Shown here piece by piece: positions 27,001 to 30,000 of a stretch of DNA of 64,000 nucleotides. Position 1 is the first letter of the stretch, and every line of letters starts with the position of its first letter. The stretch is from Escherichia coli (GTDB lineage Bacteria > Pseudomonadota > Gammaproteobacteria > Enterobacterales > Enterobacteriaceae): the NCBI RefSeq assembly GCF_051903065.1, contig NZ_CP178438.1. One strand, 5' to 3'. A program made the position numbers.

Positions 27001-30000
27001 TCTGCGGATCGCCATACGGGCCGGAGGTGTCGTAGACCGGAATCGCTTCGTTTTCTTCGTACTGCGGCTGTTCTTTGCTACCGCCAATTAGCGTCGGGCT
27101 AAGCTGGATCTCACGCATCGGCACGCGCACGCCGGGTTGTGTGCCAGTGATATAAATGCGTTTTGAGTTGGGAAAGGCGGTGCCTTCCAGGGTGTCGATA
27201 AAATGTTGGGCCTGGGCGCGTTGTTCGCGACGGGTCAGTTTTGTTGCAGACATAGCTCATTCCAAAAAGTTAAGGACGTGGCTTGTCAGACGACGGATGA
27301 AGCAAGAGACGATCGCCGCAAAGGCGATGCGATAGCAGATTAACTCTTGTTCCCTTCGCAGGTATTAGCCTGATCAGGTTCCGCGGATCCCGAATAAACG
27401 GTCTCAGCCAGTTAAGGCACTCCGACAAGAAATTAGCCCCACAAACGGGGCGTTGAATGTAAATTACGCGTTAACAGCGCAGAACTCAAGCAGGATGTTT
27501 GACGCGGGCGGCGTCAAGCACCAGCAGAATCAGCTTATCTTCCAGCACAAAGCGCGCTTCCAGTGCCTCGCCGATGTCAGATAAAACCTGTTGAAACTCA
27601 AGGTAATTATCATGATCGATAGCGGTTTCCAGGCTGGAATCGTAGTAATCCATAATCTGTTGGGTATTGGCTTCGAGTTGCGGCCAAATCTTCGCGGCGC
27701 GCGCGAGTTGCCCGTTGCCTTCCAGCTTATGAAGAATGCGCTCATAAATACTGAAATGTCCGGCAGACAAGTAATCGACCAGGCTCTGACAAAAATCATC
27801 AAGGGCTTTTTCGTTTAGCCTCATGTACGATTCTTTGCCAGGCTTAATGCCAACCAGATTGTAGTAAGCCACGAGCAGATGCTTACGTACATGTAGCCAG
27901 CGATCAACCAGTTTGTTACTTCCTCTGACGCGCTCCGTCAGGTTATCGAGCTGGTTAAGCATGATTGACTCCGCAAGTTTGTATTCAAAAACTGCTCAGT
28001 GAGAAATGTAAAAACCATGTTAAACATGCCAGTGATGCAAAGGTAGTGCAAGAGCTATGGATCGTATAATTGAAAAATTAGATCACGGCTGGTGGGTCGT
28101 CAGCCATGAACAAAAATTATGGTTGCCGAAGGGAGAATTGCCATATGGCGAAGCGGCAAATTTCGATCTTGTGGGTCAGCGCGCACTACAAATCGGCGAA
28201 TGGCAGGGGGAACCTGTTTGGTTAATACAACAGCAGCGGCGTCACGATATGGGGTCGGTACGTCAGGTCATTGATCTCGATGTTGGGCTGTTTCAACTGG
28301 CCGGACGTGGCGTGCAACTGGCGGAGTTTTACCGATCGCATAAATACTGTGGTTACTGCGGGCATGAAATGTATCCAAGCAAAACCGAATGGGCGATGCT
28401 GTGCAGCCATTGCCGTGAGCGTTACTACCCGCAAATCGCCCCCTGCATTATTGTTGCCATCCGTCGCGATGATTCGATCCTCCTCGCCCAGCATACCCGC
28501 CATCGTAACGGTGTCCATACGGTACTTGCCGGATTCGTCGAAGTGGGCGAAACCCTCGAGCAGGCGGTCGCGCGGGAAGTGATGGAAGAGAGCGGAATTA
28601 AAGTTAAAAACTTGCGTTATGTGACTTCCCAGCCGTGGCCGTTTCCTCAGTCTTTAATGACCGCGTTTATGGCGGAATATGACAGCGGCGACATCGTGAT
28701 CGACCCGAAAGAATTGCTCGAGGCGAACTGGTATCGCTATGACGATTTGCCGTTACTCCCGCCGCCCGGCACCGTGGCGCGCCGTCTGATAGAAGATACG
28801 GTGGCGATGTGTCGGGCAGAGTACGAGTGATGATACACTGACCGCCTGACGCACTAAGGAACAGCCAAAATGACCGAACTTAAAAACGATCGTTATCTGC
28901 GGGCGCTGCTGCGCCAGCCCGTTGATGTCACTCCAGTATGGATGATGCGCCAGGCGGGTCGCTATCTACCGGAATATAAAGCCACGCGCGCCCAGGCGGG
29001 CGATTTTATGTCGCTGTGCAAAAACGCCGAGCTGGCGTGTGAAGTGACCTTGCAACCGCTGCGTCGCTACCCGCTGGATGCGGCGATCCTCTTTTCCGAT
29101 ATCCTCACCGTCCCGGACGCGATGGGGTTAGGGCTCTATTTTGAAGCCGGAGAAGGTCCGCGTTTTACCTCGCCAGTCACCTGCAAAGCTGACGTCGATA
29201 AACTGCCAATTCCGGACCCGGAAGATGAACTGGGGTACGTGATGAACGCGGTGCGTACCATTCGTCGCGAACTGAAAGGCGAAGTGCCGCTGATTGGTTT
29301 TTCCGGCAGCCCGTGGACGCTGGCGACCTACATGGTGGAAGGCGGCAGCAGCAAAGCCTTCACCGTGATCAAAAAAATGATGTATGCCGATCCGCAGGCG
29401 CTGCACGCTCTACTCGATAAACTGGCGAAAAGCGTCACTTTGTATCTGAATGCGCAGATTAAAGCCGGTGCTCAGGCTGTGATGATTTTCGACACCTGGG
29501 GCGGCGTGCTTACCGGGCGCGATTATCAACAGTTCTCGCTTTATTACATGCATAAAATTGTTGATGGTTTACTGCGTGAAAACGACGGTCGCCGCGTACC
29601 GGTCACGCTGTTTACCAAAGGCGGCGGACAGTGGCTGGAAGCCATGGCAGAAACCGGTTGCGATGCGCTGGGCCTCGACTGGACAACGGACATCGCCGAT
29701 GCGCGCCGCCGTGTGGGCAATAAAGTCGCGTTGCAGGGTAATATGGATCCGTCGATGCTGTACGCGCCGCCTGCCCGCATTGAAGAAGAAGTAGAGACTA
29801 TACTTGCAGGTTTCGGTCACGGCGAAGGTCATGTCTTTAACCTTGGTCACGGCATTCATCAGGATGTGCCGCCAGAACATGCTGGCGTGTTCGTGGAGGC
29901 AGTGCATCGACTGTCTGAACAGTATCACCGCTAAGGAGCGATTATGGATCTCGCGTCATTACGCGCTCAACAAATCGAACTGGCTTCTTCTGTGATCCGC

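What the first reader, a model, noticed from the sequence alone, without database searches (positions are those of the whole stretch)
27254..27485. TPP riboswitch aptamer in the thiC leader
The minus-strand leader contains CUGAGA and GAACCUGAUCAGGCUAAUACCUGCGAAGGGAA, matching the thi-box core, about 80-170 nt upstream of the thiC start. This explains the long 232-bp untranslated gap between rsd and thiC. It is a well-known element, listed for completeness.
Basis: partly seen in the sequence, partly recalled or inferred. Interest (0 to 1): 0.2.

Follow-up and report, generated by a model that had tools for sequence, protein, structure and literature searches.

The report
Known thiC thiamine (TPP) riboswitch
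This is the well-studied E. coli thiamine-pyrophosphate riboswitch in the leader of the thiCEFSGH thiamine-synthesis operon; it is real and correctly identified, but already annotated and experimentally dissected, so it is ordinary.

Summary
The observation and the interpretation are both confirmed. Rfam RF00059 (TPP riboswitch) matches window 27434..27334 on the minus strand over the full model: 74.8 bits against a gathering score of 54.3, E = 6.8e-13 for the whole window. It is the only TPP hit. Both quoted motifs occur once each, and the rsd-thiC gap is exactly 232 bp. The element lies upstream of thiC-thiE-thiF-thiS-thiG-thiH. It is present in 5420 of 5426 complete E. coli genomes, and RefSeq annotates the same bases as "TPP riboswitch". 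The aptamer, anti-P1 strand, Shine-Dalgarno sequence and AUG are identical to K-12 MG1655, so the published mechanism applies directly (Chauvier 2017). In that mechanism, co-transcriptional TPP binding stabilises P1. The downstream GACAAGC box is then free to sequester the SD and AUG, and Rho terminates at a pause around the start codon. My own folds, the conservation of the platform boxes and aptamer covariation all fit this model. Two small corrections apply. The aptamer lies 81-181 nt upstream of the ATG. Only 182 of the 232 bp are the mapped leader. The other 50 bp hold a conserved promoter-like block and a conserved hairpin, which hints that the real 5' end may lie about 19 nt upstream of the published +1. 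Novelty: already known. Interest: low.

The parts
27334..27434 (-). TPP riboswitch aptamer (THI element), residues 2-102 of the published thiC leader
   Evidence: Rfam RF00059 scores 74.8 bits (gathering 54.3) over the full model. RefSeq places a 'TPP riboswitch' feature on the same bases. 23 of 28 consensus pairs are canonical, and the 5 misses are at the tips of P3 and P3a and in one P4 pair.
27425..27429 (-). P1 5' strand CUUGU (residues 7-11). Together with the next 4-5 nt (down to 27420) it is also the 5' strand of the alternative anti-P1 helix.
   Evidence: Pairs with 27346-27350 in the Rfam alignment. Pairs with 27282-27290 in the unconstrained MFE fold. Chauvier 2017 reports the C7-G16 region protected in EC-187.
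27402..27407 (-). CUGAGA junction motif (pyrimidine-sensor side); G31 is window 27405
   Evidence: Sequence. Invariant in 34 of 34 aligned aptamers, although the search pattern fixed it. The G31C mutation abolishes TPP regulation (PMC5234074).
27350..27381 (-). thi-box core: P4/P5 pyrophosphate-sensor arm through the start of the P1 3' strand
   Evidence: Sequence. The P5 pair at alignment columns 104/115 covaries: AU 24, GC 5, GU 3, UA 1.
27346..27350 (-). P1 3' strand ACAAG (residues 86-90)
   Evidence: Rfam alignment.
27339..27340 (-). Very abundant in vivo RNA 3' end (residues 96/97) at the base of the extended P1. Most likely the trimmed, stable aptamer fragment left after premature termination (inference).
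   Evidence: Term-seq in MG1655: positions 4196186 and 4196185 (-), about 1.8-1.9 million reads, inside a Rho termination region, intrinsic-terminator score 1.1, labelled 'riboswitch' (PMC7815308 supplement). Coordinates were mapped through the indel-free comparison.
27296..27336 (-). Residues 100-140: the C-rich stretch proposed as the Rho utilisation (rut) site. It contains a small hairpin, AUCGCC (27328-27323) with GGCGAU (27317-27312).
   Evidence: Chauvier 2017. A later paper from the same laboratory places rut at U93-U104. Composition here is 14 C and 9 G in 41 nt. The two differences from K-12 (27322, 27321) fall in the hairpin loop.
27282..27290 (-). Anti-P1 3' strand UCUGACAAG (residues 146-154). 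Its GACAAGC part (27287-27281) alternatively pairs with the SD/AUG region.
   Evidence: The MFE fold pairs 7-15 with 146-154. The aptamer-enforced fold pairs 149-155 with 180-187. GACAAG is present in 32 of 50 thiC-linked leaders against 1.1 expected. Mutations at 147-149 raise TPP affinity in EC-187.
27261..27276 (-). Small hairpin at residues 160-175 (UCC...GGA) that covers the first bases of the SD and is needed for the TPP-enhanced pause
   Evidence: Present in all folds. The U160A mutation abolishes the effect (PMC5234074).
27248..27263 (-). Translation initiation region: SD GGAAUGAG (27263-27256), AUG (27253-27251), and the regulatory pause and Rho-termination sites U184, C187, U188 (27252, 27249, 27248)
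   Evidence: Numbering fixed by a unique 8-of-8 residue match, +1 = 27435. Chauvier 2017. ATGTC is conserved at the start codon in the Enterobacterales leaders.
27436..27451 (-). GC hairpin GCCCCGUUUGUGGGGC followed by a U-rich tract, directly upstream of the published +1. Its role is unsettled: a 5' stem-loop of the thiC mRNA and/or an rsd terminator.
   Evidence: Terminator-like in the scan. A stem is kept with different sequences in Enterobacteriaceae genera and in Pectobacterium, Brenneria and Dickeya. No Term-seq 3' end is recorded there.
27461..27489 (-). Conserved promoter-like block: TTGAGT (27489-27484, overlapping the rsd stop codon), a 17-nt spacer, and TAATTT (27466-27461). Candidate thiC promoter (inferred).
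   Evidence: Conserved with fixed spacing in 9 of 10 Enterobacteriaceae-grade leaders. It falls below the threshold of the consensus scan.
21889..27253 (-). Regulated operon: thiC (25358-27253), thiE (24723-25358), thiF (23975-24730), thiS (23791-23991), thiG (23019-23789), thiH (21889-23022)
   Evidence: NCBIfam equivalog hits for ThiC, ThiE, ThiF, ThiS and ThiH. thiG comes from the RefSeq annotation of an O157:H7 chromosome whose 341-bp leader segment is 100% identical to the window.

Best explanation
This is the E. coli thiC TPP riboswitch, a cis-acting RNA in the 5' leader of the thiCEFSGH mRNA that switches off thiamine biosynthesis when thiamine pyrophosphate is plentiful. The aptamer (window 27434-27334) folds into the standard P1-P5 three-way junction and binds TPP while the RNA is still being made. 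Without TPP, the 5' strand of P1 (CUUGUCGGA, 27429-27421) pairs with a downstream copy of the P1 3' strand (UCUGACAAG, 27290-27282). This anti-P1 helix locks the aptamer open and leaves the SD and AUG free, so thiC is translated. With TPP, P1 forms. The downstream GACAAGC box is released and pairs across GCU-AUGUC (27256-27249), while UCC pairs with the GGA of the SD, so ribosome binding is blocked. RNA polymerase pauses longer at the start codon (C187 = 27249) and Rho terminates there, which lowers the mRNA level of the whole operon. What I showed here: family membership, the alternative pairings in this sequence, conservation of the boxes, and sequence identity to K-12. What comes from the literature: TPP binding, pausing, Rho dependence and the mutant phenotypes. 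What is inferred: that the abundant 3' end at 27340/27339 is the exonuclease-trimmed aptamer fragment.
For: Rfam RF00059 matches at 74.8 bits against a gathering score of 54.3, over the full model. The gene context is thiC/E/F/S/G/H on the same strand. The element is present in 5420 of 5426 complete E. coli genomes and is annotated as a TPP riboswitch. There are only 5 differences from MG1655 in 265 nt, none in the aptamer, anti-P1, SD or AUG. The published residue numbering maps uniquely with +1 = 27435, matching 8 of 8 named residues; G31 and U184, checked by hand afterwards, also fit. The unconstrained MFE of residues 1-200 gives anti-P1 7-15:146-154 with the AUG unpaired. Enforcing the Rfam aptamer pairs moves 149-155 onto 180-187 and pairs 6 of 8 SD bases and 2 of 3 AUG bases. 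GACAAG occurs in 32 of 50 thiC-linked leaders against 1.1 expected, and 29 of them have it 26-40 nt before ATGTC even though the platforms range from 32 to 396 nt and are otherwise unalignable. On 34 aptamers, 90.7% of cells are paired against 27-50% in slid registers, 7 pairs change on both sides, and 0 of 500 shuffles reach the observed percent paired, cells changed on both sides or covariation score (8/500 reach the count of 7 such pairs). Experiments in PMC5234074: TPP represses both translational and transcriptional fusions; G31C abolishes this; bicyclomycin abolishes the control of mRNA level; Rho with NusG terminates at U184 and C187; there is no intrinsic termination in vitro. Term-seq and BCM data in PMC7815308: the 3' end at residue 96/97 lies in a Rho termination region with a low intrinsic-terminator score.
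Against: Nothing contradicts the identification. Several caveats apply to details of the mechanism. With nearest-neighbour energies alone the aptamer-enforced state is 14.7 kcal/mol less stable than the anti-P1 state (-39.1 against -53.8), so the OFF state depends on ligand and tertiary energy and on kinetic, co-transcriptional capture, neither of which I can compute. P1 and anti-P1 are nearly invariant in my comparative set, so that helix is supported by conservation and not by covariation. The set was also selected with a pattern that fixes the aptamer core. The highest Rho score in vivo is 169 nt inside thiC (MG1655 4195930 = window 27084) and not at C187, so part of the Rho effect may be ordinary polarity that follows translational repression. 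The two papers place the rut site differently: residues 100-140 and U93-U104.
Confidence: 0.97

Rival explanations
1. It is the same riboswitch, but control is essentially translational. TPP-induced sequestration of the SD and AUG stops ribosome loading, and Rho then terminates on the untranslated thiC message by ordinary polarity, not through a dedicated pause-and-rut checkpoint at the start codon.
For: The strongest bicyclomycin-dependent signal in MG1655 lies inside the ORF at 4195930, which is window 27084, 169 nt past the AUG (Rho score 38.8). The aptamer-enforced fold does sequester the SD and AUG. [quoted passage not shown]
Against: In a purified transcription system with no ribosomes, TPP induces Rho/NusG termination at U184 and C187. 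A transcriptional fusion with an independent lacZ RBS is still repressed. A pause-destabilising mutant (U160A) removes the TPP-mediated lengthening of the C187 pause that Rho termination requires.
Confidence: 0.2
2. The riboswitch acts by classical attenuation. The platform hairpin AUCGCC/GGCGAU (27328-27312) followed by CGUCUCUUGCUUC would be a TPP-controlled intrinsic terminator, as in Bacillus TPP riboswitches.
For: A 6-bp GC-rich hairpin followed by a pyrimidine-rich tract exists at residues 108-137. mRNA levels do respond to TPP.
Against: The terminator scan does not call it: the tail has too few U and the stem is short. No prematurely terminated product appears without Rho in vitro. The intrinsic-terminator score of the in vivo 3' end is 1.1, below the 3.0 cut-off. 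The hairpin forms in both the ON and OFF folds, so it is not a switching element.
Confidence: 0.02
3. It is a chance resemblance to the thi-box with no function.
For: None found.
Against: E = 6.8e-13. Covariation in relatives. The position in front of thiC in 53 of the 120 pattern-matching loci. Near-universal conservation in E. coli. Published ligand-binding and genetic data.
Confidence: 0.005

Closest known systems
E. coli K-12 thiC TPP riboswitch (Winkler, Nahvi and Breaker 2002, cited from my own knowledge and as reference 12 of PMC5234074; Chauvier et al. 2017, PMC5234074)
   Same: It is the same element. Residues 1-113 and 116-200 are identical to MG1655, including the aptamer, anti-P1 strand, 160-175 hairpin, SD, AUG and pause and termination sites. 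The genomic position between rsd and thiC is the same.
   Different: Two bases in a platform hairpin loop differ (27322 and 27321, residues 114-115: UU here, CC in K-12). Three bases upstream of the published +1 differ (27452, 27446, 27441). None touches a proposed functional pairing.
Rfam RF00059, TPP riboswitch (THI element)
   Same: Full-length match above the gathering score, with P1, P2, P4 and P5 and the conserved junction sequences.
   Different: P3 is minimal here (GCC-UUAACU-GGC), whereas relatives carry extended P3 stems of up to about 50 nt. The tips of P3 and P3a have U-U and U-C mismatches.
E. coli thiM and thiB (tbpA) TPP riboswitches
   Same: Same aptamer class and same organism. 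They share SD/AUG sequestration, pausing near the start codon and links to Rho.
   Different: Their thi-box variant and expression platforms differ. My thiC-type pattern was designed from memory of the thiM sequence to exclude it, and this was not tested. Neither lies in this window, where there is only one TPP hit.
Bacillus subtilis thiC/tenA TPP riboswitches
   Same: Same aptamer family and the same regulated pathway.
   Different: They act through a TPP-controlled intrinsic terminator. The E. coli element has no intrinsic terminator and uses translation control with Rho.

Membership tests
TPP riboswitch (Rfam RF00059) | Covariance-model score at or above the curated gathering threshold on the strand of the regulated gene | tested here: met
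   74.8 bits against 54.3, E = 6.8e-13, model positions 1-105 of 105, minus strand.
TPP riboswitch (Rfam RF00059) | Conserved junction and loop sequences: CUGAGA (pyrimidine-sensor side) and the ACCUGAUCnGGnUAAUaCCnGCG...GGGA thi-box (pyrophosphate-sensor arm) | tested here: met
   Both are present once each, at 27407-27402 and 27381-27350.
TPP riboswitch (Rfam RF00059) | Secondary structure P1-P2-P3 and P4-P5 around a three-way junction, supported by covariation | tested here: met
   In the window, P1 is 5 of 5, P2 is 5 of 5, P4 is 3 of 4 and P5 is 4 of 4 canonical; P3 and P3a are paired at the base only. Across 34 sequences, 90.7% of cells are paired against 27-50% in slid registers, and 7 pairs show double-sided change. 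Caveat: the core columns were fixed by the search pattern, so the informative covariation is in P3, P3a and one P5 pair.
TPP riboswitch (Rfam RF00059) | Location in the 5' leader of a thiamine biosynthesis or transport gene, in the same orientation | tested here: met
   It lies 81-181 nt upstream of thiC and is followed by thiEFSGH.
TPP riboswitch (Rfam RF00059) | Direct, selective binding of thiamine pyrophosphate by the RNA | not testable with these tools
   Published for the K-12 aptamer, whose sequence is identical: Kswitch 28 nM, and G31C abolishes regulation (PMC5234074). Sequence identity is shown.
Riboswitch with translational and Rho-dependent expression platform (E. coli thiC type) | Mutually exclusive P1, anti-P1 and SD/AUG-sequestering helices | tested here: met
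   The MFE fold gives anti-P1 7-15:146-154. The aptamer-enforced fold gives 149-155:180-187. The GACAAG and ATGTC boxes are conserved at 26-40 nt spacing in 29 of 50 leaders.
Riboswitch with translational and Rho-dependent expression platform (E. coli thiC type) | No intrinsic terminator in the platform; premature termination depends on Rho | tested here: inconclusive
   The terminator scan finds none between the aptamer and the AUG on the minus strand. Rho dependence itself rests on the literature: bicyclomycin and in vitro Rho/NusG, and Term-seq with BCM.

The most novel reading that the evidence does not exclude
In E. coli and its close relatives, the thiC leader may start about 19 nt upstream of the published +1. 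The start would be near window 27454/27453, from a conserved sigma-70-like promoter (TTGAGT, 17 nt, TAATTT) that overlaps the rsd stop codon. The RNA would then begin with a conserved GC hairpin (27451-27436). The primer-extension 5' end at 27435 would be a reverse-transcriptase stop at the base of that hairpin, or a processed end. The hairpin could stabilise the mRNA 5' end, or insulate the aptamer from rsd read-through. It was not detected as an rsd terminator in Term-seq.
Probability: 0.4. Interest if true: 0.25.

Novelty: already known. Interest (0 to 1): 0.06.

Why it matters
It matters little as a discovery. This element is one of the founding examples of riboswitches, a model system for co-transcriptional RNA folding and Rho control, and is already annotated by the standard pipeline. 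The value of this check is that the first-stage call is accurate and needs no further attention. The only loose thread is the true 5' end of the leader. If transcription starts upstream of the conserved hairpin, constructs used in folding and pausing studies lack about 19 native nucleotides and a 5' stem-loop. That would be a modest refinement of a well-used model and would not establish any new mechanism.

Tried and rejected
1. The consensus sigma-70 scan of 27150-27650 found no promoter, so the candidate promoter rests on cross-genus conservation only.

2. I looked for a published thiC transcription start other than the primer extension. The supplements of PMC5234074 held no text on it. Searches for thiCEFSGH with promoter, and for rsd/thiC/terminator, gave nothing useful. 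The Thomason dRNA-seq paper is not held, under the PMC id I recalled from memory.

3. De novo RNAalifold on the aptamer alignment mis-paired P2 because of gap-rich P3 columns. I replaced it by counting pairs on the Rfam architecture.

4. Covariation could not be tested for P1 and anti-P1, because CUUGUCGGAG is nearly invariant in the gammaproteobacterial thiC leaders I retrieved. I report conservation against shuffles instead.

5. The whole-leader fold z-score is unremarkable (-0.86), as expected for an RNA with competing structures. I did not use it as evidence either way.

6. An intrinsic-terminator reading of the platform hairpin was considered and rejected.

7. My thiG coordinates gave no NCBIfam equivalog hit. 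The identity of thiG was taken from the RefSeq annotation instead.
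Full report
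OBSERVATION. Read on the minus strand, the 232-bp interval 27485-27254 lies between the rsd stop codon (27488-27486) and the thiC ATG (27253-27251). CTGAGA is at 27407-27402 and GAACCTGATCAGGCTAATACCTGCGAAGGGAA is at 27381-27350, each occurring once in the gap. The flanking ORFs are ThiC (NF006763, 1073 bits) and Rsd (NF008723, 218 bits). thiE follows thiC, and nudC is divergent upstream of rsd.

A scan of the whole window against Rfam 15 at gathering thresholds gives one TPP riboswitch hit (RF00059). It is on the minus strand at 27434..27334 and scores 74.8 bits against a gathering score of 54.3, with E = 6.8e-13 and model positions 1-105 of 105. A permissive E-value scan of 27200-27540 on both strands finds nothing else. 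Of the 28 consensus pairs that map onto the window, 23 are canonical. P1 is 5 of 5, P2 is 5 of 5, P5 is 4 of 4 and P4 is 3 of 4, and the remaining mismatches are at the tips of the variable P3 and P3a hairpins.

IDENTITY. The 341-bp segment is present in 5420 of 5426 complete E. coli genomes at 95% identity or better. RefSeq annotates 'riboswitch / TPP riboswitch' on the very bases that Rfam matches, between rsd and thiC. Downstream are thiE, thiF, thiS, thiG and thiH. Compared with K-12 MG1655, the 265 nt from 27500 to 27236 have no indels and five substitutions. Three lie upstream of the published +1 (27452, 27446, 27441) and two lie in a platform hairpin loop (27322, 27321). Experiments done on K-12 therefore apply to this sequence.

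MAPPING THE PUBLISHED ANATOMY. Chauvier et al. 2017 (PMC5234074) name residues C7, G16, G100, A138, C158, U160, C187 and U188. Only one offset satisfies all eight, which is +1 = window 27435. G31 (27405, the G of CUGAGA) and U184 (27252) also fit. This places the features as follows:
- AUG at residues 183-185.
- Anti-P1 strands at 27429-27420 and 27290-27282.
- Proposed rut region (residues 100-140) at 27336-27296.
- The 160-175 hairpin at 27276-27261.
- Pause and termination sites U184 and C187 at 27252 and 27249.

MECHANISM, MY OWN CHECKS. The unconstrained minimum-free-energy fold of residues 1-200 pairs 7-15 with 146-154 (the anti-P1 lock) and leaves the AUG unpaired. The same fold is obtained for residues 1-175, the RNA exposed when polymerase sits at the 187 pause. 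For residues 1-146, the RNA exposed at the 158 pause, anti-P1 cannot form. When the Rfam aptamer pairs are enforced, the released GACAAGC (149-155) pairs across GCU-AUGUC (180-187) and UCC pairs with the GGA of the SD. Six of 8 SD bases and 2 of 3 AUG bases are then paired. The enforced state is 14.7 kcal/mol less stable by nearest-neighbour energies. This fits the published conclusion that TPP must be captured co-transcriptionally within a narrow window.

MECHANISM, COMPARATIVE CHECKS. Of these, 53 have a thiC homologue within 600 nt downstream. Among 50 thiC-linked leaders, GACAAG occurs in the platform of 32, against 1.1 expected from shuffles. In 29 it lies 26-40 nt before ATGTC, although platform lengths range from 32 to 396 nt. 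P1 5' (CUUGUCGGAG) is almost invariant in this set, so this is evidence from conservation and not from covariation. For the aptamer, imposing the Rfam architecture on 34 sequences gives 90.7% paired cells, against 27-50% when partners are slid by 1-3 columns. Seven pairs and 35 cells change on both sides, and 0 of 500 shuffles reach the observed percent paired, the number of cells changed on both sides or the covariation score (8 of 500 reach the count of 7 such pairs). The informative columns (P3, P3a and one P5 pair) were not fixed by the search pattern.

MECHANISM, FROM THE LITERATURE.
- TPP represses both translational and transcriptional thiC-lacZ fusions.
- G31C abolishes this repression.
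- An RNase E degradosome mutant has no effect.
- Bicyclomycin abolishes the control of mRNA level.
- In vitro there is no intrinsic termination, but Rho, and more strongly Rho with NusG, terminates at U184 and C187 when TPP is present.
- Pausing at 187 favours anti-P1 and lowers TPP affinity about 75-fold relative to the free aptamer.
In MG1655 Term-seq (PMC7815308), one of the most abundant 3' ends in the table is at 4196186/4196185 (-), which is window 27340/27339 and residue 96/97, at the base of the extended P1. [quoted passage not shown] The peak Rho score is at 4195930, which is window 27084, inside thiC. I interpret the 96/97 end as the exonuclease-resistant aptamer fragment left after premature termination; this is an inference.

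RIVALS. A purely translational switch with secondary Rho polarity is partly compatible with the in vivo Rho peak inside the ORF. However, the ribosome-free in vitro termination and the pause mutants argue for a direct component. Classical intrinsic-terminator attenuation is rejected. A chance match is excluded.

The riboswitch does not fill the whole gap. From the published +1, the leader is 182 nt. The remaining 50 bp (27485-27436) contain two other conserved features, described next.

SIDE OBSERVATION, NOT RESOLVED. Nine of the ten Enterobacteriaceae-grade leaders compared share a block: CTTGAGTT, 10 variable nt, TTAACGCGTAATTTAC. These are the window, E. albertii, Citrobacter, Enterobacter cloacae, Klebsiella, Superficieibacter, Siccibacter, Mangrovibacter and one MAG. 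The exception is Enterobacter asburiae, which has different upstream sequence. The block reads as a -35-like TTGAGT overlapping the rsd stop codon, a fixed 17-nt spacer and a -10-like TAATTT/TAAGTT/TAGTTT. It is followed by a hairpin whose sequence differs in every genus while a stem is kept, and then by a U-rich tract that runs into P1. In the window the hairpin is 27451-27436, ending one base before the published +1. Pectobacterium, Brenneria and Dickeya have near-consensus TTGAC(A/G) with TACAGT/TAAAGT promoters, again upstream of a hairpin. In contrast, Yersinia, Photorhabdus, Proteus, Xenorhabdus, Arsenophonus, Serratia silvae, Aeromonas and Plesiomonas have a TTGTAG-type -35 and a TATACT-type -10 ending about 7 nt before CUUGUC, with no hairpin. 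The promoter is therefore upstream of the hairpin wherever the hairpin exists, which predicts an E. coli start near 27454/27453, about 19 nt upstream of the primer-extension end. No Term-seq 3' end is recorded anywhere in MG1655 41962xx-41963xx, although rsd-internal ends are, so the hairpin was not observed to act as an rsd terminator. I could not find TSS data to settle this. It does not affect the identification of the riboswitch.

VERDICT. The finding is correct and already known. Interest is low.

Noticed in passing
window 27461-27489 (-): A promoter-like block is conserved in 9 of the 10 Enterobacteriaceae-grade leaders compared. It consists of TTGAGT (overlapping the rsd stop codon), a fixed 17-nt spacer and TAATTT. 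It predicts a thiC transcript start near 27454/27453, about 19 nt upstream of the primer-extension +1 (27435) in PMC5234074. The consensus scan does not call it (3 of 6 matches in the -10 hexamer).
   Followed up: partly
window 27436-27451 (-), and the equivalent position in L008, L115, L013, L011, L097, L056, L006, L018, L047, L048, L074, L021: A GC hairpin followed by a U-rich tract sits between the promoter-like block and P1. The stem is kept with a different sequence in each genus. It is absent in Yersinia, Photorhabdus, Proteus, Xenorhabdus, Aeromonas and Plesiomonas, where a near-consensus promoter abuts P1. It looks like a terminator, but no Term-seq 3' end is recorded there in MG1655. 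It could be a 5' stem-loop of the thiC mRNA.
   Followed up: partly
window 27339-27340 (-): In published MG1655 Term-seq data, one of the most abundant 3' ends in the table (about 1.8-1.9 million reads) maps to residue 96/97 of the leader, just after the extended P1. This implies that a stable free aptamer RNA accumulates in vivo. Whether it has any trans function is unknown.
   Followed up: partly
window 27084 (-), inside thiC: The highest bicyclomycin-dependent Rho score in this region in MG1655 (38.8, p = 1.4e-135) lies 169 nt into the thiC ORF and not at the C187 checkpoint. This suggests additional Rho termination or polarity inside the gene.
   Followed up: no
window 27321-27322 and 27441, 27446, 27452: These are the only differences from K-12 MG1655 across 265 nt of leader and flanks. 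All fall in hairpin loops or just outside stems, and the 341-bp query is 100% identical to O157:H7 and several other strains.
   Followed up: yes
whole window: The Rfam gathering scan shows the window is the E. coli rrnB-to-rrnE-like region. It contains a partial LSU rRNA with 5S (1-3074), four tRNAs (6542-6980), P26 (12084-12145), sroH (21481-21641, minus strand, just downstream of thiH), a complete rRNA operon (39281-44290, with a tRNA at 40908-40980 and StyR-44 at 41061-41169) and naRNA4 (50601-50678).
   Followed up: no
E. coli genome collection: Two of the 5422 matching places for the thiC leader are on records typed as plasmids, and 6 of the 5426 complete genomes have no match.
   Followed up: no
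L123 (NC_000913.3 4190000-4200000): The MG1655 reference record lists no riboswitch feature between rsd and thiC, whereas the PGAP-annotated O157:H7 record does. This is a difference in annotation only.
   Followed up: no
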